From Naegleria gruberi (Eukaryota): DNA of 64,000 nucleotides. Shown piece by piece: positions 39,046-61,676 of this stretch (position 1 is the first letter of the stretch; each line of letters begins with the position of its first letter). The notes under the pieces are model-generated. The model was not told the origin of the DNA, did no database searches, and was given only the letters and a program-made list of their open reading frames with translations. The stretch lies in assembly GCA_000004985.1 (NCBI GenBank), contig GG738849.1; one strand, written 5' to 3'. The translations under genes were made by a program, and so were the position numbers.

Positions 39046-42005
39046 ATGCTAACGAAACTAAAGAACTCTTTCAGAAAGAAGGGAGCATCCAATTCTACTG
39101 AAGAATCGTCTTCCTCCTCTGAAAACATTGGTAATCAGTCCATTACTAGATCATTTCACAATTTAATTCAAGACAAAACAGAAAAAACTCAAGAAGTGAA
39201 AGAAACTAAACAACGAAGAGAAAGTGAAGGATATCTATTGTTACATTTGATAGGAGCAAGTAATTTACCATCGGCTGATGCTAACGGATTGTCAGGTATG
39301 TTGTGATGAAAAAAATTGATGAATTTTAATTGATGATGAAAATTTGATGGATGACATTTAGATCCATTCTGTAGTATCAAGATTAAAAACACAGGTCTCA
39401 GTGAATCAGAGGAACAATATCAAAAAACTGAAGTAATTAAGAAAGAATTGAATCCACATTGGAATTCATTCTTTTTCTTTGATGTGATTGAATTTAATGG
39501 AACTTTTGTAGAGTTTGAGGTTTATGATTATGATAGACTTTCAAAGAATGAGTAGGTTTTTATTTACTTTGGTTGAATTTTCTAATTTTGGAAATTTTAC
39601 AAAACAATTTAAATAATTTAAAATATTTAAAAATATAAATTTAAAACAACAAGTTTATTGGGAGGATGTGCATTTAATATTAAACTATTAACACCATGTG
39701 TTCAAACAGAATTATCTATTGGATTAGATACTAAAGGAACAGTTGACTGTAACATGATGTACATTCCACAAACAACTTTTGGTTTCTTGATGAAGAAATG
39801 TATTGAAACAAAGAACATGTACATTGATAGGGATTTCCCTGCCACCACTACATCCATTTGTCATAATGAAACCTTTTTATCAAGTAAGGGAATTGACCCT
39901 TCTTCCATTAGTAAGTTTTTCACACATACACACACTTTAAAATTCTTAAAATTCTTCATAATTTCAAACGCACAGATTGGATGAGACCTAAAGAATTCTG
40001 TAAAGGATCTCTGAGACCAGAACTTTTCCTAGCAGGTGTTGAACCAGCAGATATCAGACAAGGTAAAATTGGTGATTGTTACTTTTTGGGAGCTATTGCA
40101 GTTGCAGCATTGCATCCAAAATTAATCAAATCCTTGTTTATTCCATCTGCCTATAATGAATATGGTATCTATCAGATTAAAATGTTTTATAATGGTATTT
40201 GGCAAGAGGTCATTATTGATGATTATGTTCCAGTGGTTGTCTCTTCAAAGATTGAACAAAAATCAAGAAGTAATTATGCACCACTTTTTGTAAGATCAAC
40301 TGATTTGGAAGAATTATGGGTAATTTTATTGGAAAAGGCATATGCTAAATTACATGGATCATATGAAGATATTGAAGGTGCTCATTCAATTCGTGAAGCA
40401 TTTGAACATTTAACTGGTGGTTGGTCAGATGCTATCGAATTAGCTCCATACATGAACGGTAAAAAATCAAATACTGACCTATTTAATAACATGTTGGAAT
40501 GGAAAAAGAATAGACATTTGATGGCAACTTCAACTGCTAGTGATAATGATTTTGATTTTGAGAATTATCTTGTTCCTAATGATAATGGTATAGTTCCAAA
40601 ACATGCCTATTCAATTCTAGATGTTCGTTATGTTTCAAAAGAGGAAAGTCCTGAAAATATTCCATATCAACTTGTCAAATTGAGAAATACATGGGGTAAA
40701 ACTGAGTGGAAAGGTAAATTCGCTGATGATTGGGAAGGATGGACTGATGCATTGGCTAAAAAACTCAATCAGGTTAATAGTGATGATGGTTCTTTCTGGA
40801 TGAGCATTGATGATTACGTTGAACAATTTAATTACTTGTACATTTGTCGTGTTCCAATCACTGATGGATTTATTAGAGAAATTTCAGCAATTCCAGTTGA
40901 TTTGGATATTAAAAAGATGATTAAGGAAAGAGCTAGTAATGCACACATTATTTTCGATAAGAGAGGAGGAGCATGTGAGTGGAATCAAGAACTTTATCAA
41001 AATGCAGGTGGACAAATTTATTTCAAGGAGAGTTTCTTCCAAAACCCACAATTTAGATTGACCATTGATTTACCACCATCTTTAGCGAATCAAGATGATA
41101 CAGCAAGTATTTCAGATTTTAAATCAAACATGATTCGTATCATTGTTTCTATTCGTATAGTTGACGATGAAAAGACAAAGGATGCCAAACGAAAGAAACA
41201 AACCAAACCAAATCCTCTAGGTCTATACGTTTTCAGAAATAGAAAGGCACAAAAATCTGGCAAGTATGCCTTAATGGACTTTCCAGATAATGCAGCTGAT
41301 AGAGTTGGAGAAACCAACATGAAGAAATTGAGTCGTGATGCTGTGGAAATTTATCTCCCAAGACCAAATCCAAAGAAATACGAACAGGAGAAACAAGAAG
41401 GATTGCACGATTATACCATTGTGGCAAGTCGTTGGTATCCTAATACAGAAGGTTCATTTGCTATTCAAGTTTGTTCAGATTACAAACATTTACAGTTTGA
41501 GGCAATTGATGGATCTCAATCAGCAGCTGCATTTTGTAAAAAGGTTATTAAGAGTGAGTGGAATGGAGTGGACTCATGTGGAGCTCATTGGCAAACATCA
41601 ACCTTTTCTACCAATCCAAAATTCCTTATTCAATGTAAGGAAATTCCTAACCACCCACAAGGTAGTGAAGATTCTCAATTTATTAGAAATGCTGTGAATA
41701 TTTATGTGGAATCTGAGAATGGAAAGATACCATTCTTTCCCTATGTAGTTTCATTGGTCAAGTTTAAAAAGTGGATGCAACAATCTGTACTGCAACCAAT
41801 CACTGAAGATCAATGTGTTCTATTTCCACCTAATGGAAATGAGTTCTTTACCATTCGTCATTCTTTTGATTGTGAGTTGGCCTGCAGAAGAGATAAACCA
41901 GTTTCATACTTGCTCATCTTGGGAACACCTTACAAGATGGCTGGAAAATTTACAATTGTTGTTAAGGCTGAACAAGAAATTACTATTGAACAAGTTTCAC
42001 TCTAA
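39046..42005 (+). CDS. Calpain-family cysteine protease with N-terminal C2 domain, 4 exons (908 aa)
   Basis: Exons are 39046..39295, 39362..39551, 39654..39910 and 39976..42005 (2727 nt, in frame). Donors are GTATGT, GTAGGT and GTAAGT. Exons 1-2 encode a C2 fold (LSG|DPFCSIKIKNTG...FEVYDYDRLSKND). The catalytic triad contexts are QGKIGDCYFLGAIA (Cys), VPKHAYSILDV (His) and VKLRNTWGKTEWKG (Asn). Confidence 0.8.
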
Positions 42006-42197
42006 TACAATAATTTATTAATTTACAATTAAAAAAAAATGTTAATGATTAGTACAATAGTTTGGATTTTCAGTTGGAATTTGATTTTTTATTCCTTACT
42101 GGATACTTTCTTTGTGTAGGATTGTTGCCCTCGATAATATAAGTGGAATAGTAAAAAAAGATTAGATAAGCTAATTGGAAAATATTATAAAATCCAT

Positions 42198-45100
42198 TTA
42201 TAAGAAATCAAGAGTTTCTTCTGTTGTGTGATGAGTGTGAGAATGAGAGGAATGATGGTTACGAGAGTGATCCATGAGGGAACCAACAATTTCATCATCC
42301 TTACTCATGTATGAACTGAAACGGAGATGACTCAAGAGGGCATCCTTCAATTGATTAATGTTTTGTTCTTCAAGATTGGCGCTCTTTTCCTCCTTTTCTT
42401 CCTTTTCACCACTTTCTGCCTTCTCTAAAGTGTATGATCTCAGAGTTGGGAAGAAGGTAATATATTGCTTTTGAGCCAACTCGGCAACATATTGCTCAAT
42501 ACCTGTATATTCATCTTTTGGTTTCTTTTCGAGATAGATTAAAAAGTAAACATAATTCCACATGTTGTGTTCCTTCTTAATGTGTCCTTCAAAGGTAATA
42601 CCTTCATTGGCACGAACGTCGAATCTGGACTTTTCATTAGAACATATAAAGCAGAAACCTGACTTTTCCTCATCCAATTCTTGTTTCTCTTCTCTTCTTT
42701 CACTGAAACTTTCAAGCACAATACCGAAAACAACATTGACCAAAATAATGATAATCAAGAGTGAAAAGTACAAATCAATAAAGATACGGGTGACATCAAG
42801 TGGGTATGGATCAGTAATATCTTCCCAGAAACCACCTCCACGAAGACCATAATTGACAATGGACATGAAGCATGTTAATGTTTCCTTACAAACAATAACC
42901 TTGTTGAAAACAAACTGATCATACTTGAAGGAAAACATGAGGAAGGTGTGAACAATCATGGCAAATGCAGTCAAGACACCAGTGTAGAATAACTTTTCAT
43001 AATTTTGACCAATGGCAACAATAATATCCAATAAACCATCAGGAGATAAGAAGATTATTTCAAATGTCAATATAATATATGCCAAAGGTGTTACAAATAT
43101 ACCAATCAAAATCATGCAGAAATAGATTAAAATCCACCACAAGTAAGGATCTTGAGCAGTGTACAGGGCAAACTTTCTGAAAAATTCACGATCCTTATGC
43201 AATGTATCCCACGATTGATCCTTCTCCAGTTTGAATTTCTTCTTAATGTTCAACATTAGGAAGAAGTACAAGTGTATTCCCAATAATCCAAAGGTTAACA
43301 ATAATAGTATGAGACCCAATATTTCAACCACAATACCAATAGGCATATAATTAAAACTATTTCTATACTGTATGCCATCTGGTAGGGCAATACCTGGAAC
43401 AACTACTGGACCAGAAATTGAATCAAACTGTTTAGTATATGTAGCAGTGACCAGAATATTAATGAGTACTGCAATCAAAAACACTCCAACCTTAATCTTG
43501 TACCAATTCTTTTCTATAAATTTCCATCCTCTTGCTTTCAAACTATTTGGATTGTCCATAAGACTCTTCAAGTGCATCATTTCAATTCTTGCAATTTGAT
43601 AAGTCCAATCAAAGAGGGATTTCACCTTGGTTTGTGGAGATTCTCTGTTACAGCTTTCAACAAACTCATCCTTGGTAGATTCTTGTAAATGTCTACATTG
43701 TTTGATGATTTTAAAGTGAACGATTTCTAATTGGTTATCTCTAATGACTTCTATGGTACCAACTCTTGATTCATAGTAATTGAGCCATGCCTTTTCTCCT
43801 TCATCCATTTGACTAATAGTCTTGTCTTCCGAGTCAAGATAGTCTGGAGTAATTTCATTGAAATCAAAGTCCAAATATTTAAGGAGAATGAAAATAGAAA
43901 TACCAATGTTTTGGGATTTCTTGATGCAAGTACGAACATCAGCAGGATTAGGCGTTTCTGTCTTGTTTTCAAAAGCAAGTATTTTCTTGATTTTTTCCTT
44001 ATATTCTGAATGACCGTCTGTGAATAAAATCATGAGTTTGCATAATGACTTGAAATCTAGGGACTTTTTGATATGATTCTTTGAAATTTTGTTACCACCT
44101 TCTAACATACTGGTAAGAAGAATGATAATCTTTTCAATCAGCTCTAGTTCATCCTCAACCTTCAAGTGATCAACAAATTCACCTTCCAAATCGTCATCTG
44201 GGAAGTCCATATCCTTATCTTCTGGATCAAGAGATTTTCTACCCAAAATTTCATTAATGACAGTCATTAATCTGGTTGAGGAGGCAAGTTCAATAGATGT
44301 TTCAATACAAGGACCTTGAATCATTTCATTGAGAGTATCGAATGCTTGAATAAAGTTTTCAGCACTGTCTTCGCTCAAATACTTGAACAAACCCAAAACA
44401 TAGTCAATACATTCGGAAACTAGATTTACGGAAATCTTATTGAAAGGTTGATTGTAGAGCATTTGTTGATTTGGCAAGTAGTGACCTTCACACAACAACT
44501 TTAAAAAGAGCAAGACATCCTTTGCATTGGTTGTATCATGTTGAGCATCTTGGGAATTATTTCTCTTTCTTATAGAGAAGTATTCCTTAACTTCGTAGGT
44601 TGATTGTCTGAGACGGTTCTTCATGGCCATAAAGAATGACTCATAATTGCCACTTCTGACAATAGTACCAACAACCTTTCTGGTTTCAACTGAGGTCAAC
44701 ATTTCATGAGAGAGTTTGAGAGCTGGAACAACAATTTCATAATCCGCTGTCAAAAGTTGCAAGACCAATTCTGGTATTCCATTTTCAACAGAAAATTCTG
44801 GCTTTTGATCTTTGATAGCATACTTGATGGTTTCAATAGCTCCAATAAAGGTCTCAACTAAATCTTTGGTAATACCAATGGACATGATTCTTTGTAAAAC
44901 CCCAATTAGTGTCTTGAATTGACCTTCATAGGCGTTAACAAACAATTTGGCCAGATCTGAGAAGATTGATTCTGCACTTTGAGCTTGAATTGATTCAATG
45001 AAAAGCTTGAAACGTTTGGCTACTTCGTTACCAACATCAACTGTGAGTGCCTTGTTTTGAATGGCTTGTGGTGGAACAATCTTGACAAGGGCATTTCTCT

Positions 45101-48100
45101 TTACTTGCAAGAACTTGACCTCCAATTCGTGGGAAATTCTTGTACGTTGGTGAATTTCATAAAAGCACTTATCAATATCCTTTCTATAGTTTTCATTAGC
45201 AGTATATTTGTACAATTCTATGAGGTTGGTCAAAATTTCTTCAATAATTTGCAATGTATCACTCTCGTTGGACTCTTTTGCATTGGAGAGAGTTTCTTTG
45301 GAATAATAATTAATAAAGTAATTAGTCAGGAGTGGAATAATAATTGAATAAATGTACTTTTCACTGACATAGTACTCGGCACTAATATCATCATTGTCAT
45401 CCTGAGGAAGATCATTTCTGAGTGGAGGTAATTGATACGTGACATCTCTTTCTAATTTACAAATATTTCTACCCTTGCAGTCAATATAATATTTAATTTC
45501 TTCCTTGATTCTCTTGAAGAGACGCCAAATAGTAGTATTGGCAATAACGTCATTGGATTTCTTCTCTGTATTAATGTATAATTCGTTGAGCAAGCTCATG
45601 AGAGGATCTCTTACTAGAGGAATCAACTTTTCAGATAATAAAGAAATACAATCATCAAATGACAAGATGGATTGAATTTTGACTTCTGCCTCCTTTACGG
45701 TACCCAAGGTACAATCACTGAGTAAGTATAACATGTTAATGTGATAGTTCAAAAGAGAACCTGAAACTTTGTATTCCTTGTTGAGAATTCTTTGTCTTCT
45801 CTCCTCTATACCAACATCATCGTTGAAGAGAACAATGATATCTTTTCTTTCTGTTGAAAGGTAGATGGCAATAATATCTTGGTTTCTTTGTAAATTGGAA
45901 GTACCAATTCTCGTTAAAACTCTTAAAAAGTTTAAATGCCAAGACTTTTTACCCAACTCTCCAATCTTGTCAATATATTTGTGGATAAGTTTTTCGTCCA
46001 AGTTGATGAGGAGTTGCTTATTATCTCTCACAATTTCACATAACAATTCACTGGTATCTAATTTATCGGAGAAGATACCAATCAAAAAGGCAATGTGAGA
46101 GAAGAGCTCTGATTGATTTTCAGTATTACTTCTAACAAATTCTGTCAGCACTAAAACCGCTTTTTGATAAATATTACTCTTGATGTTTTCTGGGTAAATT
46201 TTAGTGAGGCAGAGAATCATGAGTTCGTGAATTTGCAAATTTCTCAGAATGCTTTGAGCACTATGGCCATACTTTTTCACGTCGGCAAGAATTCCCTTGA
46301 TGGTATTCTTGAATTCCTTATATTCTTTAGAATCTCTACCACCAGAGAAAGTGGCATTATTGACCAGATTGTTCAACTTGTTATAATAATTGAAAATAGT
46401 TTCATAGGATTGGACTAACTTTGGTGTGGTCAATAAAACTAATCTTTCCAAGTTATTCTTCAATTCAATATCTTGCATGGATGAACGAAGTAAAATCTTG
46501 AGAGCCTTGATTGGAAGTTCATTATTTTGATACTTGAGTAAGAAGAGCATTGTTGGAATGAATTTTAAAGGAGGAAGACTTGAATTGCTATGAGTATAAT
46601 CTGTCTTATCAAATTGGAAGAATGAAATATTCTTAATCTTCATCGCTAAAGTATCCATCATTCTGGTGTTATTGTCGTCAGACTTGGCTTTGAAAAAGTC
46701 AAGAATCAAACTAATACGATAGTCAATACGCATATCAATAACATAGAGTAGAATGTCACAAATTCTATTCTTAATCTTGATAATTAGACGATTGTTTTCC
46801 GAATCTACAAAGTTCAACTCTTCGTTGGCATCAGTTGTGGCCTTTAGGGTTGCCAATAATAAGTGAATAATGTTGGAAATTTCTTCCTGATCAGTGGTAT
46901 AACTTTCGTCCAACTTTTTGTGTTCCAAATCATCACCATATGGATTGTAAGCTCTGTACAAGAAGAGTTTGTGGCAAATCTTAACTAATTGATAGCTAAA
47001 CCATTGATCTTGGTTGGTAGTGAGTTTTCTATTGGCAGAAACGAAAAAGTGTTTGTAAATAAAGTCCTTCAGTCTCTTATGTTGATATCTGTAATCTTCA
47101 AAGGTAGTAGTGGTTCTAAGTGTACTGTTACTGTTTGTCCACTTTCTAGTAAGTTTAATTGCAGGTACTTGTTCAATACCAACAGCATCAACATACAAAT
47201 ATTCCATCAAATTGGAAAAAGCAGAACGAATACTCAGAGGAGCAGTTGCATCTTCAATACATTTCAATACCAAATCGTATGGGAAAATTCTTTGAACAAA
47301 GGGAATAGCCATTGTATTCTTACCAGAACACAATGAGGCGAAAAATCTGATTGAGCTTATCATAAATTCGAAATATTCAGTCTCACAAAAGTGTTTAAGT
47401 GATTTGGTTTCACCTGTTGAAGGGATATCCACAATAGGTTTCCCCTCCTCAATTCTTGGTACAATGAAAAGTCTTGGATGTTTTTGGATGGCATCAGATA
47501 AAAGTTCTACCAATCTGTTTTGATTCTTTTGGATTGGTCTTTCCTCACATTTACATAAAATTGTCAAAAGTTTGAGGTAGAGATCCTTCTTTCTGGTATT
47601 TTCAACTAAAAGATTGAAAAATCCCTCAATTTGACTCGATGAAATACTGTCCAATAGCTCCATATTATCCTTAATCATACCAATCAAAAGTTCTGTATTG
47701 GTCTGACCAATAGAGTTGGCAAAATCTTTGGAAGAGTTTAGGACAACTTCTGAAGATTCTCCCAAGATGTGATTTTGTAATTCGTGGAAATACTTTTCAA
47801 AGACGTATAAACTGTTTGGTACGTGAAGAAGTGTAATTTGTCTGATAGATCTGAAACTATATTGATAAAGTTGATCCCATTTGTCATCCTTGCCAAATAT
47901 TTCACCAGAATCCTTGATAACTTGCATAATAGTGTCAATGAGACCAATATCTCTGAATGCAGATTGCCTCTCAGGATATGGAATACCTTCTCTTTTCATT
48001 ACATCTTGTTGAGTACTTTCAGTACAAAATCTGATAATGTGACGTAACATTTCTAAAACAGATTCAATGTCAACACGTTGTGGTTGTTGAATGGATGTTT

Positions 48101-49972
48101 CCTTTTTCATCTTTCTAAAGTTACTCACAATTCTAAAAATTTGATAAACAATAGTAAAGTCCTTCAATTCCTTCTCTGAAGCTAAAAAGATAGAAAAAAC
48201 ATCTGTTTCCTTTTTTCTATAATCAAAAGTCAAATCTATAAACATGGTATTATCATTTACATTGAACATTTGTGGAGCAAGAGAGCTACGTCTATTTGAT
48301 ACAGAGTCTTTTCTGAAAAGACTTCCACGACCACTTCCAGTATTATTCGAATCATTCTTTGAAGATCTTTCTGCTGCGTGAAGCCATGTGTCAGTTCTCA
48401 AGTGACGAATTCTGACAAGATTTTTTCTTTCAACAGGTTGACCATATCCAACGGCCTCTGATGCACCAACTTCAGGTGAGTGCAATGTGAAGAGAGTATC
48501 GTCGTTGGCCTCTTTGATTAGACCAGGTCTAAGAACTTGTTTTAAGGTTTTCTTAATTTTCAACCAACCACGTGCTGTTTGAGAACCATCATTAGCATCT
48601 GAAACTTCAGTCTTTTGAATACATAGATATTGTCCTGAAGGCAAGTGTTTTAACCTGAAAGGCACACTATATCTGACGAAACCGCCTTTGAATTTATCCA
48701 CATTTTCAATCTCGAATAAAGCGTTCACAGATGAGAGAGCATATTTCTCAGTAAATAATTTTACAAACTCCTTTTGTTGGAATAAATACCCTTCAGCATC
48801 CTTGTGAAACAATCTGATAACATCTCCAGTTTTTAAATAAGCCTTTGCTGAATAGACTGAATAGGGTGTATACAGATTAATTCTCCAAACATTTGATGAA
48901 TTAGATGCTGTAGCATTCACTTCATTTCTATTATCTCTATTCACTAAAGGTTTGTTATAAACCACTTGTGAAAAGTGGAGAGTATGTTTTGATTTTTCAT
49001 TGAATAGAACAATCTTATCGGACAATCTTACAGGTTCATTCTCTTGTCTAAATTTGAAATGTGGCATAATTTGAAAGAATGTTCTACTTCCACTAGTTGC
49101 CAATGAAATTGCAATACAAGCCTTTTCTAATTCTGCATTGGTACGAAGAACTGTTAAATATTCTTGTGATTGTACGTGTAATAATTGAATTCTAGCACCG
49201 TATGATACTACTTTTCCGAGAGCCTATAATGTATTCCGACAAATCATAGAATGTTATATCAAATATGAAATCCAAAAAAAAATTATTTATCCAATTAATC
49301 AAATAATTAATAGAATGAACATTTTTTTTCAATTGTTTTTTTAAAAATTATTAATTTGTGTAACATTCTACTAATACATACCTTTTGGGCTTCTATTATA
49401 TTTTGTTGTTCTTCTCTTTCCATTTTGATTTTCAACTTTTTAGATTCTACACTCTTCTCTGGATGTTTATTCGAGTTGATCATTGAGAGAATATTCTTTC
49501 CGTACTTCATGGATGTTCTTCTGGAGGCAAATAGAGCCTCTCCCAAGGCACTTGTTGAAGACATCTTGTTATCCACAAATTCATTATATCTTTTGAGAGC
49601 CGAATAGGAACCTCCCTTCATGACTACGAATAAACTTTCCTTTGAACTTGCTGATTGACTATCAATTTCTGATGATGAAGTGAATGGAGTTGCTCCACAT
49701 CGAATTGGATTTAATCCTCTAATTGAAAGATAGGATTTTTCATCTTCGTATACTAGAGAAATAACATCTCCATATCGAAGGAATAAATTTTGATTAGAAT
49801 TTGATGAGGATGATGTAATAGATGACGAAACGATGGCAATTGATGAATTACTAGAATTTGTTGTTGTTGTATTGGAATTGTTGGAGAGGAGAAGAGACTG
49901 CTGATTGCTAGAGTTGGCTGCCTGCAATGCCACAGACATCAACATTGAATTGTTCGCTGAAAGTGCAGACAT
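42198..49972 (-). CDS. ITPR: Inositol 1,4,5-trisphosphate receptor / ryanodine receptor-like Ca2+ release channel, 2 exons (2538 aa)
   Basis: Exons are 49972..49382 and 49223..42198; the intron runs 49224..49381 (GTATGT..TTATAG). The N-terminus has IP3R suppressor/MIR-like sequence (LFLRYGDVISLVYEDEKSYLSIRG, VVSYGARIQLLHVQSQEYLTV). Central RIH/helical regions follow. The C-terminus has 6 TM helices and a pore loop (LRGGGFWEDITDP) followed by ...FCFICS. Confidence 0.9.
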
Positions 49973-50130
49973 TTTTTGTTTTGATGGGTGACTTTCAGTT
50001 CATCACTGAAATTAGCACAATCCACAATCAACATACAACGAATCTAATATTCCGATTCTCTTCAAAACGAGCTCATTGAGATAGTGGATAAATATTTGTG
50101 AATAACAATGTACCCTGATGTTTATATATA

Positions 50131-52778
50131 CTATTGATCCAGATCCACATTCATATTCAATTGGGAGAAGGACTTTTTAAGTGAAATAGTAGATCCAAAA
50201 TAACGTAAAATACCAGTATCACACTCTTGTATGTGCATTGGCAAGTTTTCTCCAACATGTCTCTTATTGGCCTGAATGAAAAACTTGGCCCTTCTTGACC
50301 AGTCGTGAATTAATGATTTCAAAATATTCTGTTCAATATCGTAGAGAGTATTGTAATCCATATTGGAGGTTGTGGAATATTGTTGGACGTGTGTAAAAAT
50401 TGTTTGGAAAAAGAGTTTTTCAATTTCCTTGCCTAGAGTTGTTTCCTTATATTCTTGCTCGGTATGAATTGATATCTCCTCGATATCATTCGACGAATAT
50501 CCCTCAATATCAAGTAGAATGACAAATCTAAAATCAACACTATCCTCAGTGATTTGAACATGTTTAGGTACTGTGAGAAAATTGGCATCATATGGGAACA
50601 CATAGGATTCACTGTCTTGAACCATTTTGGCACATTCCTTTGGAACGATGGTTGTGAAGAGCCGGCAAATCTCATTCCTCATTTGAACATTGTCACTCCT
50701 AACTATTAATTGGTTCCCTATGAGAACATTATAGATGAGTGATTTGATCATTTCCTCACTTTGAGTGTAAGACTCTTCATTTGCATCATCAGTATCAGCA
50801 AGCTCGATACCAATAAATAAATTTCTCTCCAGTAAAACCTTATTGAAAAGGCTCTTTTTAACCATTTTTGAAAAATCTGACAACAAGTTAAAACAGCCAT
50901 TTGCTGGTGTGGATGGTGAATCACTTTCATTCGAGGTAATGCTAGAATTACTAATAAATGACCTAATCCTTGGCATTTCACAAGATGGAATCGAATAATT
51001 ATTGTACATGTCTAATTTTTGATAATTTGAATTATCCAATTCAATTTCAGATAATTTGCTGTAAAATGATTGTAATAATCCAGAAAAGCAATTGTGTAAA
51101 TCCGAATAAAAATCTGGATAATTCAATAAAAGAGGTAAATCTCTCATAGGACCTTTGGAACGTTTTTGTCTGAATACATCTGCTGAGAGTGGACCTCCAG
51201 AATGGAAAAATCTATAACCATGATCCTCAGCATTAGTACCATCCTCATTGAGAGCATTAGAGGAACCTGATCGCTTTTGTTTTTCCTTCTCCTCTAAAAA
51301 TATTTGTTGAGAACGAGCTCGAATAAGCTTGACAATTCTACCCATACCACTATTGAGGAAGGGCCAACTAATTGTAAGCATTGAAAGAGAAGTATCCATT
51401 AATACTATGGCAAACCATCTGGCAAACCCTCTTGCCATACTATCCTTAACTTTGAAAATATAGGCAAAATTGTATCCATTAATTTCATCACCAAATAGAA
51501 CTGGGCCCTCTCTTCCTTGACCCACTGAAATTTCTGCTGATGTGCTACGAATGGCTAAAGTTTTAAAGTGAGCTGAAAATTTTGAACTTTCTTGATGTGA
51601 ACTCACAAAAATTTGCTCATTATCTCGATCTATTGTTAATTGCTCAATTGAGGATAACATTAATAATTGATTAAAATGGTCATTTTCCTCCTGTTGATTT
51701 GAGTTGTGTTCTTTTCCGAACAAGTTAGGATAGTATTTTTTGAGATGCAACATTAAATCTTTAGAGGCAAGGGACGAAATTGTTTGAGGATGATCTAGAT
51801 TTTCCAAATTAGTGATATCCAAATTATTGGTAGAAGATGAGTTGCTATTTGATTCTTGTAATGGTGTTGTTGAAGTGATTTCACTACCGTTTGGTGTTGG
51901 ACTAGTTGTGGAAGAAGGAGGAGAACTTGTTGAGGTGGATGATGTTTTGTGTTGTTCTGTAACTTGGTGACGATGGTGATGTTGATGATGACTCACTATT
52001 TGAGTTGTCTTGTGTTGTTCAAGGACGAATTTCTCTAAATGTGAAATATCATGAATATTATTAATCATTTGAGTGCAATAGACAAATGAAGGTCCTTTTT
52101 GTTCACAAAACTGGGCTAACACAATAGCATGCTTGTTGTATATATTCACTGTATTGGAATTGGCACCACTATTTGCATTATTCATGATGGAAGATAATTT
52201 ACTGGAAGGATTAACTCTCATACTTTTCGAAATGTTTCTCTGCTTTGGTGAAATATCCATTATTTCCGAAGTATGTCTCGTCATTACTCTCTGAAACATT
52301 CCATTATTATTTTGTTATTGTGATGAGAATTATTTGATGTTGTGAGTGGGCTTCCGGATTGATCACTTCCCATAAAACAAGAGCTATTTACACTATTCAT
52401 CATGAGTGTTGTTGATGCTGTACTGACATTTCCTGTACTACTGCTACCATTACTTTGCATTGAGAAGGGTATTCCGGAAATATTATTTTCTTGTTGTTGC
52501 TGGTTAGGAGTTGTTTCAAATTGTTGTTGTCTATCTGATGAGTTTGTTTGTTGATTGGTTGGGGTGAGAGTGCTTCTTCGTTGTGCTCCTACTTTAATCA
52601 TTCTCTTCCTTGCTGTTGATGATGTTGTAGTTGAAGCATTGTTTGGAGTAATACTCCCACCAGAAGAATTGTTTGATTTTGAATCGTTGTTATTATTATT
52701 GTTGATGGATCCACTAACAGCAACACTGTTACCACTCCCAGAAGGGTTTAAAGGGGAGGATGTTTTGTTATTGATCAT
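50131..52778 (-). CDS. FLCN: Folliculin (FLCN) homolog, uDENN/DENN family, 2 exons (848 aa) with low-complexity N-terminal extension
   Basis: Exons are 52778..52392 and 52290..50131; the intron runs 52291..52391 (GTAAAT..TTTCAG, phase 0). AIVLAQFCEQKGPSFVYCTQ matches human [61 protein letters not shown] matches [39 protein letters not shown]. Confidence 0.85.
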
Positions 52779-54417: not shown

Positions 54418-56731
54418 TTATTCATACCTCCAAACTCTTGCTCGGAAATCACCACTACCAGTTGCAAAAAGTGGACGTTTTGGATTCAAAGAAACACTAA
54501 TAACAGAATTCTTGTGACCTTGAAGCATCAAATGTAAAACATTACTACGAGGATCCCAGAATTGAACACTTCTATCCTTTGAACCACTGACCAACCATTT
54601 ACCATCAGGTGAATAAGCAACACTGAGAACAAAATCTCTGTGACCAGAGAGAGAGGCGATACAAGAAGCGGATTTGATATCCCAAATCTTTAAGGTTCTA
54701 TCTAAAGAACCAGAGGCAAGTGTTTTACCATCAGGAGAGAAGGCAACACTATAAACAGAATCATCATGGCCACCATTTCCACTAAAAGCTTCAATTAAAT
54801 CACCAGTAGCCATATCCCACAATCGTACAACACAATCCAATGATCCTGTAGCAACAGTTTTACCATCAGGAGAAATAGCAACACTAGTAACACCTTCACG
54901 TGGACCAATTTCTTCATTACCACATGTATGTCTACATTCACCAGATTCCATATCCCAAATTTTAGCTTTACCATCACCACTGCCACTAACTAAAAATCTA
55001 CTATCAGGAGAGAAATCAAGTGAATAAATATCTAATTCGTGTCCTTCTAATGAACGGTAAATTTGCTTTGATTCAACATCCCAAATTTTAACAGTCTTAT
55101 CATCAGCACCTGCAACAAGGTATTTACTGTCAGGAGAGAAACAAACACTTCTAATGTATGAATCTTCTTTCATACCTCCTTCAACAATATCATCATCATT
55201 TGATATCTTCTTTGGAGGTTCTTCACGTTCATCATCTTCATGTTGTACACTACTTCCGACAGGTCCAATTGTTGAAAAGGTTCCAAATTTCTTTCCTGTA
55301 TCAACATCAAAAACAATAGCTTGTTTGTTACTTCCAGTTGCCAAATATCTACCACATGAACTGAATTTAACACAACAAACAACACTTTCTTGATCTAAAT
55401 TATGATACAAGCTCATATTTAAATTTGTTGTTGCTGTAACTTGTGGATTATAAACAACAACCCAATCATTTCCTTCTTTCTTTACAACATTATCATTACT
55501 TCTCTGATCGAATAAATTAACCTGATTTGTTGTTGGGGTTGGTTGAGGAGGAGGAACATTCCCATTTGGTTGTGCGCTTTGTAAGTTAGGATTTCCATTA
55601 GTTTGTTGTGGAGGATTATGAATCTGAGAATTATTTACTGATTTTGGTCTCTCAATGAATGCTTGTGATGGTTGACTTACATTATTATTGACTGATGGCA
55701 CCGAAGGTGTGTTATTTCCATTTTTTGGTGGTTGAATAGAAGGTAATGAAGATCCATTTGGAGGTACGTTATGCATTGGCATCAACATATCATTTGGAGG
55801 TAAAGCTTGTCCATTTACAGGTGGAAATGGGCTTGCTCGTTGTTGTTGTTGTGGTGGTTGTTTGTTGCCTTGTTGATATGAATCATGATATGGAGGTAAA
55901 TGATTCATTCCACCATTTGGAGGTGGTGGATTACCACCAATAGGTGGAAGTGGAGGTGAAGAACCATTAAGTGGAGGTTGATTTAGATTGGAAGGAGGTT
56001 GACTCGACATCATGGATGGTAATGATTGTGAAGATGGTGGTAAATTTGGTGGTGGTAATGTAGATAATCCAGGAGCATTTGTAAAGTTTTCTCTTCCCAT
56101 ACCGTGCATTGGAGGTGGTTGTGAGTAATTAGGTGGTGGAACTTGTCCATTTGATACAGGTGGATATCCATGTACATTATCTTGTTGTTGTTGTTGACCC
56201 AGTTGTTGTTTAAGTTCATGAATAGTAGCATTAAGTTGTTGAATACGTTCTTCATAACTGTTGCACAAGAAAATTGTATTAATATCAACAAAACAATGTT
56301 GGAGAGTGAAAATATTTTAAAAATAAGAATTGGTGTTAATAATGACATGACATGATTACTTACTGTTGTTTAGAGGCAGTAAAAGCATTTTCTAGATCGA
56401 AAATAGCGTTGTGCATAACTTGGAAATCTCCAAGTTGACTCTCTAATTTTCTTTCCAATTCTTCCTTAAGATGTTTAATATTTAAATATTCTTGTTCTAA
56501 TGTCAAGTAATCTTTCTTGATTTGTTCCATCCAATCAACAACTCTCTCACCTCCAACAAAAGGAACGTGGGAAGTTGGACCTCCACTTGGGTGAACTGGG
56601 TGTGATACAACAGAAGAATGTGGAGGTTGATTTACAATTTGTTGTGGACCATGTGGATTAGCCATTGGTGGTTGGTGATGGAGGTGGCCTGGAGGTGGAC
56701 CTCTTGAAGGTGGGGCATTGTGACCAAACAT
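54418..56731 (-). CDS. TUP1: Tup1/Groucho-like WD40 transcriptional corepressor, 2 exons (735 aa)
   Basis: Exons are 56731..56364 and 56257..54418; the intron runs 56258..56363 (GTAAGT..CAACAG, phase 2). The N-terminus is a Tup_N coiled coil (DWMEQIKKDYLTLEQEYLNIKHLKEELERKLE). The middle is Q/P-rich. The C-terminus has 7 WD40 repeats (GH...WD units). Confidence 0.9.
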
Positions 56732-57148
56732 TTTACTATTAAAACAACAATCAACAATGAAAGGAAACGATTAAACGTGTTGATGACGTTGTATTTTTTT
56801 TAAATAAAAATATATTGGAAAATATTTTAAATTAGCGATAATCGCACAATTTGAAGTTTTTGAAACAATTTTCTTCTCAATAGAAGCAATTAGATATTGA
56901 TTTTAGATACAATTCAATTAAATCAAAGCATTTAGTTTATTTGGAAATTATGAAATATCATAAAGACTTGATGTTGTTGGAAAGGAAATCAATGACTAGA
57001 TTTTCTTCTTATCATACAATATCTTGTTAATAACATTCTGAGAATCACACAACTTGCTCAAAGTAGAAATCTTACTTCAAGTAGCACATCATAATGTCTT
57101 TTCATGTGAGGTGATCAATAGTACTCTTAAATTTGTCAAACTAATAGG

Positions 57149-59757
57149 TTACACATTTTCTTGAAGTCTAAATTGTAAATGTTCATACAAATCATTGGAA
57201 ACTACATGAATGTCAGTTGCACTAGGACTGCCTTGTTGTTGGCTGGTAAGGAAGAATAATACTTTATCACCATTGTTTGGAAGGATAGATGCCTTATTGA
57301 AATTCTTGATATGGAAAAATACGAGTGGAATTCTGTCAACTTCAGGCATATTTGAAGGATGTGCCATAACGTTAATCTTACCAAATGTTTCCTTTTTGCC
57401 AATAATTTCTCCAAGACAATAGTTAAATTGAGAAATTAGTTCATCTGGTAAATCACCAAGTTCGAATAATTTTCGTGCTATTGGCTTTTCTTGTGGAGGT
57501 GAATCTGTGTCGGCCTCATAAGGACTTGGTTGTAGTAATATATTCTTTGATTCTCCTTTGATGGTACTTTGTATGGATCCAGATGCAGATGTTGATGATC
57601 CTTTAGATTTAGTTGGCTGGGTGGTAGTTGTTTTCTTCTTCTTTGATTGTCTAACTTTGAAAGTAATGTTAGTACCATGAGATTCTTTTAACTTTTTCAA
57701 ATCTTCCTTTAGCTGACCGAATAATTCTGGGAAGTTTTGTGGAACGTTTTGTAATCTTTCTATAAGCTCAATATTCTGAGCGTATTCATTTCCTGAAATT
57801 GTTTGGAATTGAATCAAATCCCCCAATTGTAAGTTTTCAATTCTACATCTCAAAGAGGAAGTAGATGTGAGAATCTTTCCAAATGGCTTTTCCAATTCAA
57901 TCACAATACCTATGTCATATCCAGTTTTGATAGTAAAGTCAACACGTTTGTAAAGTTGAGCTTTCTTTAATTTTTCAGTTTCTTCCAAGGCTTTATCATT
58001 AAACTTCTTTCTTTCCACAGCTTTGGCAAATTTACCTACATTAAATGTTAGAGAATTTTAAATTTTAAAATATTAAACATACCTACGCTGAGGACAACCT
58101 TAATTTCCTCTGGTTCTTGTTGTGTTGTATTTGATATTGCTTCGTTTTGTTTTGTCTCAGCTGATGTTGTAGAAGATGAACTAGTATCTGGTAAAGTACT
58201 CTGTTTTGTGGTTCTAGTCTTCTTTTGAGGAACAATGTTCTCATTGGAAGTTTGATCCTTTGTGTTATTAATTTCCTTATTGGCAGATTTCTTCTTTGAT
58301 TTGGTTGTAGGTGCATTATTGACCACAGGCGCACTCAAGGTTGTAGTTTTTGGTGTCTCTGAAAGTTTTTCATAATAGGCCAGCTGTTCACCATAACCTC
58401 CACATGCTTCTGTTGGACAAGTAATACTTCTATCATTATTTCTGTTAGCTCTGTAATACTTTAGCCAACATTCCTTGTGGAAATTGAGCTTGCACTTATT
58501 AGAACAAGTACAAATATAAAAATCATCTTTGTTTGTAATTGTTCTACCACCAGATTGGTTACAGAATAAACAAGTACCCAATTCAATAATTTCAATTTGA
58601 GGCTCATTAGAGGTGTTGGATGGTACTTCAACTTTTGGTGTTGATGTAGGTTGTTGCTCTTGCAAAAGTTGTTGTCTTTTCTGTTCCTCTCTCTGTTTCT
58701 TATTTTCTTTTCTCTTTTTAGATTCTTCTAATTTGGCCTTATATTCTTCCCATTCTTTCTTATTCTTTTCAGTATTTCTTGGAGCTCTTCGTTTAACTGT
58801 TTCAGGAATGGTGCTGCTAGTTGGGTCCTTCTGGTTCTGCATTCTTCTCATTTGAGTAGCTTGGAAAAAGTCTTCATCGTCACTATCTTCTCCACTGTGA
58901 AAAGAATCAGAATCGTCATCACTATTTGAATCATCCTCAATTAAATCAGGTAGATCACTATCATCATCTTCCTCATCTTCATCATCCACTAAACCAGGCA
59001 TGCCTTCATCACTTGTTTCTACTAGAGGAGGTAATTCATCCTCACTATCGTCCTCTTCATTATCAGTATCCATTAGTGGTGGAGGTAGAGAGTCGTCGTC
59101 ACTATTTTCGTCATTTTCATCTACATCCTCCCAATCATCTTCATTCTCTTCATCATCAGTTGTATCTACTAGAGGTGGTAATTCATCCTCTTCCGATTGT
59201 GTTTTTAGACTTGGATTGGTAATTACTTCTGGCTGGTTTTTGAGTTTTTGATCATCTTGTTTCTCCTCTTCATCATCGATATCAACTAAAGGTGGTAATT
59301 CATCCTCTGCACTATCCTTGTCTAATTTCTCTTCTTCATCCTCAGTATCCACCAATGGAGGCAAAACATCTTCTTCAGCCTTCTCCTCTTCATCATCAGT
59401 TTCCATTAGTGGAGGTAATTCATCCTCTTCCTCGTCATCAGTATCCATTAGAGGTGGCAAATCTTCACCATCGGAATGATCACCAGAATCTGTTGCTTTT
59501 GATTCACTATTTCTGGTAGTAATATTATCAGAGCTTGAAGCCTTGTTGTTACTAACTTCCTCTTTATCATCAGTATCCATAAGTGGAGGTAATTCATCCT
59601 CTTCCTCATTATCGGTATCCATCAGAGGTGGCAATTCATCTTCATTATCAGTGCCAACCAAAGGAGGTTGGTCTGATTCTTCTTCCTCGTCCGTATCCAT
59701 TAGAGGTGGTAAGTCTTCTTCCTCCTCTTCATTATCGGTATCTATCAGAGGTGGCAA
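57149..59757 (-). CDS. Acidic tandem-repeat protein (about 15 LPPLMDTDDEEE-type units) with C-terminal Cys-rich zinc-binding-like module and basic linker; 5' end incomplete (upstream exon expected)
   Basis: ORFs 59757..58048 and 58018..57149 are joined by a roughly 45-nt intron (GTATGT..AATGTAG) that gives ...VVLSVG|KFAKAVERKKFNDK.... The ORF-track M residues at 59757 and 58018 are TTG and GTG, not real starts. The in-frame upstream sequence has an AG acceptor at about 59770 and a TAG, which implies an upstream 5' exon. The Cys-rich module is CLFCNQSGG...CTCSNKCKLNFHKECWLKYY...CPTEACGGY. Confidence 0.55.
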
Positions 59758-59760
59758 TTC
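58900..59760. repeat. Coding tandem repeat: degenerate 36-60 bp units (ggtggtaattcatcctcttc... / gaggtggcaattcatc...) encoding D/E-rich LPPLMDTDxEEE units
   Basis: Direct repetition of ggaggtaattcatcctcttcctc / agaggtggcaa(a/t)tc motifs more than 12 times. Several alternative-frame ORFs in the track (59000..59251, 59543..59788, 58926..59222, 59583..59897) are frame artefacts of this repeat. Confidence 0.8.
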
Positions 59761-60226
59761 ATCCTCATCAACACTTCTCGAAGCCTAGTTTTGATTTCCG
59801 ATATTTAATCACAATTAAAAAACCTACTGTATTATGTTTGTTCATTTTTTTATTTTATTTAGGCTTGCTTTTCACAAAGAAGAAGCTAGGCTTGTAATAA
59901 TGAGTATTGTGAATAAGCCTTACACTTGAAATACAATACATGTTGTCAAGATTTATGTCTTTCAAACACTTCCCTCAATGTGTGAGTTTGAATGAACCTT
60001 GTTAATGAACTTTGTACTCGGTTTCTTCCTTTCTCTTTATCACAAGTGATGAACTTGTTATTATATTTCATTAAAAAAAATAATTAGAATTGCTCTCCAC
60101 GAGTAGATCAAGTCGTCGTGTATAAATCATCATCAGTATCAACATTCAAATTTTCATCATACAACCAACAGGTTTTTTTTAAAAAGAATAGTCACATTTG
60201 TATAGTATAATAATAAAATCAGAAAA

Positions 60227-61676
60227 ATGTTACCATCATCAAGAACAGAACCTTTAACAGAATTACAAAGAAAGGCAATTATTCCTGTTCGTTCCGATAT
60301 TGCAACAAGTGCATCGGAAGATTATGAAAAGGGATGGAGAAATTTGGAACAATATGTTGATGAAGTTATTTCATTTAGTTCTAGTTATAGGTTTGTTTTG
60401 TAATTATGAATCATTTGAATTTAATTTTTCAAAATCAGTGGGCAATCAGGTGGTAGTTATGGACCTGATAATTTGAAAGGAAAACCAAAAACATATCCAA
60501 GACATCAAAGTTCTGGAGCATCATGGTGTCCTCAAACTGTAAATTCTAATCAAGTAAGTAATGAGAACTAACAATAATAATTGAACTTTTTAATTGCAGC
60601 ATGTTATTGTAAAATTCCATCATCCAGTTTATGTAAATGAAGTACACATTTATGAGACATCTTTTCCTGGATCTGTAGTCAAAATTTCATGTAAAGTAAA
60701 ACAACAAAATGAGGAAGCAGTTGTTCCTGAAAAGAAATCATTCTTAAGAAAGGCAATAGAAAAAGTTATAGGGAAGGACGGAGAGGTATGTCACTAAATT
60801 ATTTGCCATTCTCTTATTCAATTTTTTCATAATTCAATGTTGAACTCTTACAAGTGGGTTGTGTTATTTGAAAGACCTGATGCTGTATTTGTTACTGGTG
60901 CACAAGATTTTTCACCAGAACTTTCTAATAAGGGAACTTACTCTGATACTATTAGAATTGACATGAAATTGGGTGCAAATTGGAGTGAAATTGATGCCAT
61001 CAAACTTGTTGGTAAAACAAAAGTGGATTTGCCAAAAATTACTAAACTGGGAGCAATCTATAAGAAGATGTTTGATGATGCTCTCTTTACAGATTTGAAC
61101 ATTGTTCACAAACAATCAGGAAATACCCTCAGAGTTCACAAGTCAATTATGACTTCCCGATCAGAATATTTCAAAGTTATATGTGAAAGTGAAATGATTG
61201 AATCTAAAACCTCAATTATTGAATTTGAAGAAGATGTACCATTCAATACCTTTAAGGATGTCGTTGAATTTATTTACAGTAATCACATTAATATTAATCA
61301 GGAAAATATTTATCAAGTATATCTTTTAGCAGATCAATTTTTAATTGGTTCTTTATCAACTTATTGTGGAAGACTCTTCTCCACTTGGATGGATGGAGAG
61401 AATGCCTTTGAAATGGCAAGAATGGCTAAAAAGCACTGTTGCCACAAGCTCAATGAAGTGGCTTTAGAATACATTGTTGATAATTATACATTACTCTTCT
61501 TAAATCCTCAATTTGAAGATTTAGAACATGAAGATGTGATTACAATCTGTAGGAGACTTGCTGAAAGACACAACTCTAAAGATCAAGAAGCAAACCCTAA
61601 ACCAAATACCAACACCAGTGAGACTGTTAGCGAGTGTACAGAAGACCCATGCTCAGAAGAGATTTGTGATGAGTAA
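60227..61676 (+). CDS. BTB/POZ-domain protein with N-terminal DOC/APC10-like (galactose-binding fold) domain, 4 exons; exon 2 shows an apparent frame break
   Basis: Exons are 60227..60390, about 60438..60553, about 60592..60786 and about 60864..61676. Donors are GTTTGT, GTAAGT and GTATGT. WCPQTVNSNQHVIVKFHHPVYVNEVHIYETSFPGSVVKISCK resembles APC10 [44 protein letters not shown]. The BTB is LNIVHKQSGNTLRVHKSIMTSRSEYFKVICESEM...VEFIYS. Confidence 0.6.

What the first reader, a model, noticed from the sequence alone, without database searches (positions are those of the whole stretch)
57149..60100. Acidic tandem-repeat protein with Cys-rich zinc-module; ORF-track splits it and its true 5' exon is missing
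ORFs 58048..59757 and 57149..58018 are one gene joined by a roughly 45-nt intron. Their apparent M starts are TTG and GTG. The N-terminal approximately 300 aa consist of about 15 units of (D/E)ELPPLMDTDxEEE, resembling acidic histone-chaperone-like or phospho-regulated repeats. These are followed by CLFCNQSGG...CTCSNKCKLNFHKECWLKYY...CPTEACGGY (about 8 Cys/His, a zinc-finger-like module), a Lys-rich linker and a roughly 190-aa C-terminal domain of unknown fold. An in-frame AG acceptor at about 59770 preceded by a TAG indicates at least one further 5' exon in 59770..60200.
Basis: seen in the sequence. Interest (0 to 1): 0.5.

Follow-up and report, generated by a model that had tools for sequence, protein, structure and literature searches.

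The report
Naegleria acidic-repeat, zinc-module, cold-shock protein gene
The two ORFs are one three-exon Naegleria gruberi gene, already annotated as a hypothetical protein, that joins 14 acidic LPPL motifs, a PHD/RING-like zinc module and two cold-shock-like barrels; it is a sound but fairly ordinary, uncharacterised, lineage-restricted gene.

Summary
The window is Naegleria gruberi NEG-M. ORFs 58048..59757 and 57149..58018 (minus strand) are joined by a 47-nt GTATGT…CTAAC…TAG intron (58082..58036). The N. fowleri orthologue reads straight through this junction. An 18-nt first exon (59845..59828, MNKHNT) joins the repeat ORF across a 43-nt intron. The resulting 868-aa protein is letter-for-letter the public model NAEGRDRAFT_78347 ("hypothetical protein"), so the gene structure is already known, although I saw no transcript evidence for exon 1.

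The protein has these parts:
- 14 acidic units, 12 LPPL-type plus MPGL and LPDL, in aa 16-289.
- A K/E-rich helix.
- A C4HC3-spaced cross-brace zinc module that is nearest to Pfam TTC3_DZIP3_dom and is not MYND or HIT.

An exhaustive profile search found only eight relatives: Naegleria, Willaertia and metagenomic sequences. All full-length relatives keep acidic hydrophobic-Pro-x-Leu motifs in variable copy number.

My best reading is a single-stranded nucleic-acid-binding adaptor whose acidic motif array docks partner proteins. The function is inferred, not shown. Interest is low to moderate.

The parts
59828..59845 (-). Exon 1 (ATGAACAAACATAATACA, encoding MNKHNT). The ATG sits in an AAAAAAATG context.
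   Evidence: Enumeration of ATG/GT/AG combinations compatible with the repeat frame. The resulting 868-aa product equals the public model NAEGRDRAFT_78347 exactly. No RNA evidence was seen.
59785..59827 (-). Intron 1: 43 nt, GTAGGT...AAAACTAG, phase 0.
58083..59784 (-). Exon 2 (aa 7-574): acidic repeat array, K/E-rich helix, zinc module and S/T/K-rich linker.
58036..58082 (-). Intron 2: 47 nt, GTATGT...CTCTAAC...TGTAG, phase 1.
   Evidence: The orthologue is continuous across this point. The spliced product matches the public model.
57149..58035 (-). Exon 3 (aa 574-868 plus the TAA stop at 57151..57149): two beta-barrel modules with flanking helices.
58936..59757 (-). Array of 14 acidic units [DE][DE]-L-P-P-L-[IMV]-[DE]-T-[DE]-acidic tail. 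Twelve have a PPL core; the other two are MPGL and LPDL. They span aa 16-289.
   Evidence: Regex map with coordinates and shuffle test. TRF periods of 42 and 54 nt. The motif recurs in all full-length relatives.
58660..58761 (-). K/E-rich helix (aa 348-381, KKEWEEYK...) containing the NLS-like KKRK at aa 362.
   Evidence: AF2 helix with pLDDT 86-89. KEWEEY is conserved in four relatives. KKRK was found by regex. The NLS reading is inference.
58375..58593 (-). Cross-brace zinc module (aa 404-476). Candidate ligands are C411, C414, C433 or C437, H442, C445, C462 and C467, in a C4HC3 PHD-like spacing.
   Evidence: AF2 pLDDT is 72-78.
57758..57919 (-). Beta-barrel 1 (aa 613-666): five predicted strands and no RNP motifs, so non-canonical.
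   Evidence: AF2 pLDDT 75-81. Foldseek alignments to multi-CSD Unr span 266-297 columns, which may take in both barrels. The sequence profile against CSDs is not significant, E 0.09.
57200..57421 (-). Beta-barrel 2 (aa 779-852): cold-shock-like, with the RNP1-like ETFGKI (F791) and the RNP2-like VFFH (F813, F814, H815).
59924..59941 (-). Alternative first-exon candidate (ATGTATTGTATTTCAAGT, MYCISS; GTAAGG donor; 139-nt intron to the same acceptor).
   Evidence: The resulting protein is not in the public collection. Not excluded without RNA data.

Best explanation
The region is one three-exon protein-coding gene of Naegleria gruberi on the minus strand: exons 59845..59828, 59784..58083 and 58035..57149. 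It is already annotated as NAEGRDRAFT_78347, 'hypothetical protein', 868 aa.

The protein is modular:
1. An extremely acidic, probably disordered N-terminal third. It carries 14 copies of a short linear motif with core hydrophobic-Pro-x-Leu-hydrophobic-[D/E], usually DELPPL(M/V)DTD followed by an acidic tail with a CK2-type Thr.
2. A K/E-rich helix with an NLS-like KKRK.
3. A two-zinc cross-brace module with PHD-like C4HC3 spacing. Its nearest described family is the TTC3/DZIP3 domain.
4. Two small five-stranded beta-barrels of the cold-shock/OB type. The C-terminal barrel keeps three of the aromatic/His nucleic-acid-contacting positions of canonical cold-shock domains.

Inferred mechanism, not shown: barrel 2 binds single-stranded RNA or DNA. 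The acidic motif array acts as a multivalent docking platform for a partner domain that recognises hydrophobic-P-x-L peptides with acidic flanks, in the way MYND fingers bind PxL/PXLE peptides. The zinc module adds a further protein contact. The protein would thus be an RNA-associated adaptor or scaffold.

Confidence by step: one gene and intron 2, about 0.97. Exon 1 exactly as given, about 0.65. Domain assignments, about 0.75. Adaptor mechanism, about 0.3.
For: Organism and annotation: neighbouring ORFs are exact matches to N. gruberi proteins. The spliced 868-aa product is an exact match to EFC49136.1 / XP_002681880.1 / D2V2X2. GC content of 33% and short introns fit N. gruberi (PMC8296547).

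One gene: canonical 47-nt intron. The N. fowleri orthologue is continuous across the junction and shares the Tup1 neighbour.

Motif array: 14 units, with no shuffle reaching the observed PPL count. The same acidic hydrophobic-P-x-L motif occurs 5 times in N. fowleri, 4 in P0016, 1 in P0017, 3 in P0020 and 1 in the acidic N-terminus of P0021. Flanking sequence otherwise aligns only through these units.

Zinc module: seven ligand positions are invariant across 7 relatives. All 7 modules hit PF19179. P0019 scores 30.6 bits and P0021 scores 31.7 bits, both above the 26.9 cut-off.

MYND fingers bind PxL peptides with a preceding non-polar residue and acidic flanks (PMC6916684).
Against: No transcript, expression or binding data were available.

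Exon 1 rests on a computational public model plus my enumeration. A rival exon (59941..59924) also fits.

The N. gruberi protein itself scores below the Pfam cut-offs for TTC3_DZIP3_dom (21.3 vs 26.9 bits) and CSD (19.1 vs 27 bits).

Barrel 1 has no significant sequence similarity to CSDs.

The AF2 model comes from only 8 sequences: mean pLDDT 58.7, pTM 0.27.

None of the 14 N. gruberi units matches the strict PXLE form, because the residue after Leu is I, M or V and the acidic residue comes one position later.

CspA W11, F20 and F34 equivalents are not kept in barrel 2.
Confidence: 0.6

Rival explanations
1. The acidic third is not a docking array. It is a charge device: a nucleic-acid mimic that folds back on the basic linkers and barrels to auto-inhibit them, or a chaperone for histones or other basic proteins.
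For: Net charge is -117 in aa 1-300 against +12 in aa 301-868, and there are 21 CK2-type sites. K-rich linkers follow the zinc module and the first barrel.
Against: Charge alone does not explain why the hydrophobic-P-x-L core is kept in every full-length relative while the surrounding sequence is not alignable. The two roles are not mutually exclusive.
Confidence: 0.2
2. The protein is a chromatin reader or chromatin-associated factor. The zinc module would be a true PHD finger reading histone tails, the barrels would act as Tudor/chromo-like or DNA-binding modules, and the acidic array would bind histones.
For: PHD_NSD scores 25.5-25.7 bits, above its 23.9 cut-off, when the module is scanned alone. 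The ligand spacing is C4HC3. KKRK is NLS-like.
Against: In the full-length protein PHD_NSD scores 20.2 bits, below cut-off. Generic PHD (PF00628) hit only 1 of 7 modules, at E 0.013. TTC3_DZIP3_dom is the only family hit by all 7 modules. The last ligand pair is Cx4C rather than Cx2C. The barrels match cold-shock domains first, not Tudor or chromo domains.
Confidence: 0.1
3. The protein is an E3 ubiquitin ligase. The zinc module would act as a RING-like E2-binding domain, as suggested by the family name TTC3/DZIP3 and weak similarity to the Deltex RING.
For: Weak profile hits to Deltex RING chains, E 0.05-0.07. Weak Pfam hits to zf-RING-like, SLX1_C and FANCL_C.
Against: All these hits are non-significant. 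From my own knowledge, the ligase activity of TTC3 and DZIP3 resides in a separate C-terminal RING-H2, and no such domain is found here. The ligand 4-5 spacing is x4, which is PHD-like, rather than the x2-3 of RING fingers.
Confidence: 0.07
4. The two ORFs are separate genes, or the repeat ORF is non-coding low-complexity DNA.
For: The mechanical ORF list splits them and gives non-ATG starts. A metagenome gene caller also called the 289-aa ORF alone (P0001).
Against: The orthologue is continuous. The intron is canonical and restores the frame. The repeat units vary at synonymous sites while keeping the peptide. The public model joins the ORFs.
Confidence: 0.02

Closest known systems
TTC3/DZIP3 domain proteins (Pfam PF19179; animal E3 ligases TTC3 and DZIP3/hRUL138)
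   Same: The Cys/His module aligns to profile positions about 54-105 of PF19179 in all seven family members. Two distant relatives pass the curated cut-off. From my own knowledge, DZIP3 is also an RNA-binding protein.
   Different: Here there is no RING-H2, TPR or HEPN domain (architecture of the DZIP3 family as listed in PMC3710099). N. gruberi's own score is below the cut-off, and only the C-terminal half of the profile is matched. The module is combined with cold-shock-like barrels and an acidic motif array.
Unr/CSDE1 (multi-cold-shock-domain RNA-binding proteins)
   Different: Two barrels instead of nine. They are separated by long disordered linkers. Sequence similarity is below the Pfam cut-off. 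Unr has no zinc module or acidic array.
Lin28 and plant/animal proteins combining a cold-shock domain with zinc knuckles
   Different: From my own knowledge, Lin28 has C-terminal CCHC knuckles. Here the zinc module is a two-zinc cross-brace placed N-terminal to the barrels.
MYND-finger ligands: PxLxP and PXLE motifs (p23, HSP90, FKBP38; ETO/BS69 ligands)
   Same: The pattern is a non-polar residue, then Pro, any residue, Leu, embedded in acidic sequence (PMC6916684). The relatives P0016 (LPPLED, VPPLED) and P0020 (MPGLEV) fit PXLE literally.
   Different: In N. gruberi the residue after Leu is I, M or V and the acidic residue follows it. There are 14 internal copies rather than one C-terminal copy. 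No partner is known and binding was not tested.
PHD fingers (NSD type, PF22908)
   Same: C4HC3 order and spacing. The score is borderline above the cut-off when the module is scanned alone (25.5-25.7 bits vs 23.9).
   Different: Below the cut-off in the full-length scan. The last ligand pair is Cx4C. Generic PHD models do not hit N. gruberi.

Membership tests
TTC3/DZIP3 domain (PF19179) | Whole-protein score at or above the Pfam gathering cut-off of 26.9 bits | tested here: not met
   N. gruberi scores 17.2 bits in the full-length scan and 21.2-21.3 bits with the module alone. The relatives P0019 (30.6) and P0021 (31.7) do pass. They are linked to N. gruberi by the profile search at E 1.4e-12 and 7.6e-4.
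TTC3/DZIP3 domain (PF19179) | Match over the whole 116-position profile | tested here: not met
   Only positions 54-104/105 are matched in N. gruberi. The best coverage is 23-107, in P0019.
TTC3/DZIP3 E3 ligases | Accompanying RING-H2 (plus TPR or HEPN) domains | tested here: not met
   No such Pfam hit at E<=1 in the 862-aa product.
PHD finger | C4HC3 ligand order with Cx2C ... Cx(2-4)C-x(4-5)-H-x2-C ... Cx2C spacing | tested here: inconclusive
   Observed: C411-x2-C414 ... C433-x3-C437-x4-H442-x2-C445-x16-C462-x4-C467. The order and the middle spacing fit. The last pair is x4, and the first Cys is not invariant in distant relatives.
PHD finger | Pfam score above the curated cut-off | tested here: inconclusive
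   PHD_NSD scores 25.5-25.7 bits (cut-off 23.9) for the isolated module but 20.2 bits in the full-length protein. Generic PHD PF00628 gives no hit for N. gruberi.
   Neither family was listed at E<=1 for the module or the whole protein, nor among families hit by any of the 7 modules at E<=0.1.
Cold-shock domain (PF00313) | Pfam score at or above 27 bits | tested here: not met
   19.1 bits for the C-terminal 295 aa and 14.2 bits in the full-length protein.
Cold-shock domain | Five-stranded OB-type barrel superposable on solved CSDs | tested here: met
Cold-shock domain | RNP1 (K-G-F-G-F-I) and RNP2 (V-F-V-H-F) motifs | tested here: inconclusive
   Barrel 2 aligns in register (hhalign E 8.8e-4). 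F791, F813 and H815 fall at CspA F18, F31 and H33, but the W11, F20 and F34 equivalents are lost. Barrel 1 shows no motif and E 0.09.
Cold-shock domain | Binding of single-stranded nucleic acid | not testable with these tools
   Needs EMSA or anisotropy with recombinant aa 770-868.
MYND-ligand PXLE / PxL motif | Literal [LMV]-P-x-L-E | tested here: not met
   0 of 14 N. gruberi units match. All have I, M or V after Leu, followed by D, E or G. There are 2 literal matches in P0016 and 1 in P0020. The looser non-polar-P-x-L core is met in all 14.
MYND-ligand PXLE / PxL motif | Binding to a MYND finger | not testable with these tools
   Needs peptide pull-down or complex modelling with Naegleria MYND proteins.

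The most novel reading that the evidence does not exclude
This tiny family, seen only in Naegleria, Willaertia and a few metagenomic sequences (probably uncultured eukaryotes), could be an RNA-binding scaffold. Its copy-number-variable acidic hydrophobic-P-x-L array (1 to 14 copies) would cluster many copies of one partner, such as a MYND-type or chaperone-associated domain, on bound RNA. Its zinc module would be an ancient protist counterpart of the functionally unexplained TTC3/DZIP3 domain of animals. That would give the animal domain a first functional context, namely RNA-associated.
Probability: 0.15. Interest if true: 0.5.

Novelty: new variant of a known kind. Interest (0 to 1): 0.27.

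Why it matters
The gene structure itself is already in the public N. gruberi annotation, so the main value is confirmation.

What is new is modest. A 'hypothetical protein' with no precomputed Pfam domains gets a domain map: an acidic short-linear-motif array, a TTC3/DZIP3-like cross-brace zinc module, and two cold-shock-like barrels. This architecture is not described for any characterised protein I could find.

It offers a testable hypothesis for a lineage-restricted Naegleria protein, with an orthologue in the pathogen N. fowleri. It also gives a possible protist foothold for the uncharacterised TTC3/DZIP3 domain.

Tried and rejected
- AF2 on the two-sequence alignment failed (mean pLDDT 33). 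The 8-sequence alignment was needed.
- The word-indexed homologue search with the 8-sequence alignment returned only the two proteins already known, probably because low-complexity words swamped it. With the zinc module alone it returned nothing.
- The afdb50 fold library was not available, so full-architecture structural neighbours and the zinc module's own structural neighbours were not obtained.
- An exact look-up of the 868-aa product on contigs found no record, so no transcript assembly could confirm exon 1.
- Literature searches for the locus tags and accessions, for the metagenome project and for TTC3/DZIP3 plus cold-shock gave nothing useful.
- The MAFFT alignment suggested that N. fowleri exon 1 is homologous to the spacer between N. 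gruberi repeats 5 and 6. BLASTP aligns the N-termini only through the motif units, at E 0.014, so I dropped the idea.
- I considered strict matches to EVH1, WW, clathrin-box, SIM and PP2A-B56 LxxIxE motifs from memory. None fits most units. Only 2 of 14 units have L-x-x-L-x-E.
- Repeat-number polymorphism: the one near-identical metagenomic strain differs from the window by 13 substitutions within the gene and has no indel in the repeats.
Full report
**Organism and locus.** The window has 31-37% GC throughout and many long ORFs interrupted by short GT..AG introns. Exact look-ups identify three neighbouring ORFs as Naegleria gruberi NEG-M proteins: NAEGRDRAFT_56956, _56957 and _78348, all on one 850-kb scaffold. 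This agrees with published N. gruberi statistics of 33% GC and 1.7 exons per gene (PMC8296547).

**Checking the observation.**
- The ORF list shows 58048..59757 (-) with a TTG start and 57149..58018 (-) with a GTG start.
- Between them lies GTATGTTTAATATTTTAAAATTTAAAATTCTCTAACATTTAATGTAG. It is 47 nt long, at window 58082..58036, in phase 1. Removing it joins ...VVLSV|GKFAKAVERKK... in frame.
- The repeat ORF stays open and keeps encoding repeat units (ASRSVDEDELPPLIDTD...) up to a TAG at 59787..59785.
- The first in-frame ATG is only at 59700, inside unit 2.

**The first exon.** I enumerated every ATG/GT/AG combination upstream that keeps the frame. Two candidates have good signals.
- ATG 59845, in an AAAAAAATG context, with a GTAGGT donor at 59827 and a 43-nt intron. 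It encodes MNKHNT.
- ATG 59941, with a GTAAGG donor at 59923 and a 139-nt intron. It encodes MYCISS.

The first candidate gives an 868-aa protein. That protein is letter-for-letter the public N. gruberi model NAEGRDRAFT_78347 (EFC49136.1, XP_002681880.1, UniProt D2V2X2, 'hypothetical protein'). The second is not in the collection. I saw no RNA evidence. An exact look-up of the product on assembled contigs found nothing, so exon 1 remains a prediction. Its A-rich start context resembles those of neighbouring genes.

**Orthologue evidence for one gene.**
- The conserved part retrieves a 770-aa protein (P0002, 42% identity, 97% coverage). Its cluster contains N. fowleri FDP41_005984 / XP_044559945.1.
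- It is a single ORF that runs straight across the position of N. gruberi intron 2 (VSVVGGKLAKAVEKKK).
- Its contig has a Tup_N + WD40 gene immediately downstream, just as the window has at 54418..56731.
- In N. fowleri, a 54-nt in-frame GTAAGT...TTTTTACAG segment (L001 1805..1858) sits just before the first LPPL unit. It is probably an unremoved intron at the position equivalent to N. gruberi intron 1.

**The repeats.**
- A regex map gives 14 units in aa 16-289 (window 59757..58936). Twelve have a PPL core (ten LPPL, one QPPL, one LPPPL); the other two are MPGL and LPDL. Each is followed by [IMVL][DEG], and most then by T-[DE] and an acidic run.
- Asp plus Glu make up 43% of the first 300 aa, and the net charge is -117.
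- PPL occurs 12 times, and none of 10,000 shuffles reached that count.
- There are 21 [ST]xx[DE] sites.
- Codons differ among units. TRF sees only diverged periodicity: 42 nt x5 at 62% matches and 54 nt x1.9 at 80%. The array is therefore old and is kept at the peptide level.
- Metagenome contigs 99.5-99.7% identical to the window show 13 substitutions within the gene and no indel in the repeats.
- Copy number differs between species: 14 in N. gruberi, 5 in N. fowleri, 4 in P0016, 1 in P0017, 3 in P0020 and 1 in the acidic N-terminus of P0021.
- The N-terminal regions of the two Naegleria proteins align only through these units. This points to selection on the motif rather than on composition alone.

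**Family size.** An exhaustive HMMER profile search of 1.84 billion representatives found only eight proteins at E<=0.001.
- The N. gruberi fragment and the N. fowleri protein.
- Two full-length metagenomic relatives: P0016 at E 1e-101 and P0017 at E 2.5e-65.
- A Willaertia magna fragment (KAL9657037.1).
- Three distant metagenomic proteins (P0019-P0021).

The family is therefore small and, among named organisms, heterolobosean.

**Zinc module.**
- Aa 411-467 read C-x2-C-x16-C-x-C-x3-C-x4-H-x2-C-x16-C-x4-C.
- Across seven relatives the invariant positions are the second Cys of the first pair, the Cx3C pair, H-x2-C and the Cx4C pair. This is the C4HC3 order and middle spacing of a PHD-type cross-brace.
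- Pfam gives PHD_NSD at 25.5-25.7 bits (cut-off 23.9) for the isolated module but 20.2 bits in the full-length protein.
- Pfam gives TTC3_DZIP3_dom at 21.3 bits (cut-off 26.9). All seven modules hit TTC3_DZIP3_dom, and P0019 (30.6 bits) and P0021 (31.7 bits) pass its cut-off.
- zf-MYND and zf-HIT give no hit.
- PDB sequence-profile hits (MyT1 CPTxxCxG, Deltex RING) are weak and local.
- I file the module as TTC3/DZIP3-like by transitive evidence, not as a tested member.

**C-terminal half.**
- With the 8-sequence alignment, AF2 gives pLDDT 70-85 for the zinc module and for two five-stranded barrels, each flanked by helices. The barrels are aa 613-666 and 779-852. The linkers are disordered.
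- Foldseek against the PDB ranks Unr CSD789 first (E 6.5e-4) and superposes CspA and YB-1 at TM 0.70-0.73.
- Sequence evidence agrees for barrel 2. Pfam CSD scores 19.1 bits, below cut-off. Unr CSDs come top in a PDB profile search at E 0.036. hhalign to CspA/CspB/YB-1 gives E 8.8e-4 in canonical register: ETFGKI under KGFGFI and VFFH under VFVH.
- Barrel 1 has no significant sequence similarity to cold-shock domains (E 0.09). It resembles the non-canonical barrels of Unr only by predicted fold.

**Mechanism (inferred).**
- The combination suggests a single-stranded nucleic-acid-binding adaptor. The parts are an RNP-bearing cold-shock barrel, a second structural barrel, a protein-contact zinc module, an NLS-like KKRK and a conserved, copy-number-variable short linear motif array.
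- The motif is a non-polar residue, Pro, any residue, Leu, within acidic flanks. It resembles the PxL/PXLE peptides bound by MYND fingers (PMC6916684). Some relatives carry literal LPPLE, VPPLE or MPGLE.
- N. gruberi's own units place I, M or V where PXLE has Glu. This is therefore a lead, not a membership.
- The rivals are a pure charge device or histone-type chaperone, a PHD chromatin reader, and a RING-like E3. They are listed with their tests.

**Verdict.** The added content is a domain map for an uncharacterised, lineage-restricted protein. Interest is low to moderate.

Noticed in passing
L001 1805..1858 (N. fowleri contig logan:SRR29240419_4475): The 770-aa N. fowleri orthologue model (cluster with FDP41_005984) reads through a 54-nt in-frame segment, GTAAGT...TTTTTACAG. 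It encodes an odd hydrophobic peptide (VSALGFCMGEQRQLKFLQ) just before the first LPPL unit. This is probably an unremoved intron at the position equivalent to N. gruberi intron 1.
   Followed up: partly
window 54418..56731 (-): A Tup1-like gene lies directly downstream. It has a Tup_N-like exon (56360..56731 ORF) and a Q/P-rich plus WD40 exon (54418..56268 ORF). I read the GTAAGT...CAACAG intron joining them by eye at about 56363..56258. The same neighbour is conserved in N. fowleri (L001 4526..7215).
   Followed up: partly
window 60227..61676 (+): A divergently transcribed BTB/BACK-domain gene has at least three short introns (49-70 nt; GTTTGT, GTAAGT and GTATGT donors). Its ATG lies only about 380 bp from exon 1 of the target gene, so the two probably share a compact bidirectional promoter region.
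   Followed up: partly
window 58926..59897 (+): Several Ser-, Gly- or His-rich ORFs lie on the opposite strand (for example 59000..59251, 59318..59479 and 59543..59788). They are antisense mirrors of the GAA/GAT-rich repeat coding sequence, not genes. The strong AT skew of -0.245 at 58001..60000 reflects the same bias.
   Followed up: no
L002 and L003 (ENA ERZ929261 / run ERR1078381) vs window 56874..59756: A public metagenome contains contigs 99.5-99.7% identical to this N. gruberi locus. They differ from the window by 13 substitutions within the gene and have no repeat-number change. A very close N. gruberi strain was therefore present in that sample.
   Followed up: partly
window 39981..52299: A run of signalling genes lies here: calpain with domain III (39981..42005, +), a 2301-aa IP3/ryanodine-receptor-like ORF (42198..49103, -) and folliculin (50131..52299, -). 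Elsewhere in the window are kynureninase (22127..23632, +) and glutamate dehydrogenase (7483..8994, -).
   Followed up: no
window 7483..8994 (-): The 503-aa ORF matches a metagenomic protein exactly. The public N. gruberi glutamate dehydrogenase model in the same 90% cluster is only 462 aa, while the N. fowleri and N. lovaniensis models are 510 aa. The N. gruberi model may be truncated or differently spliced.
   Followed up: no
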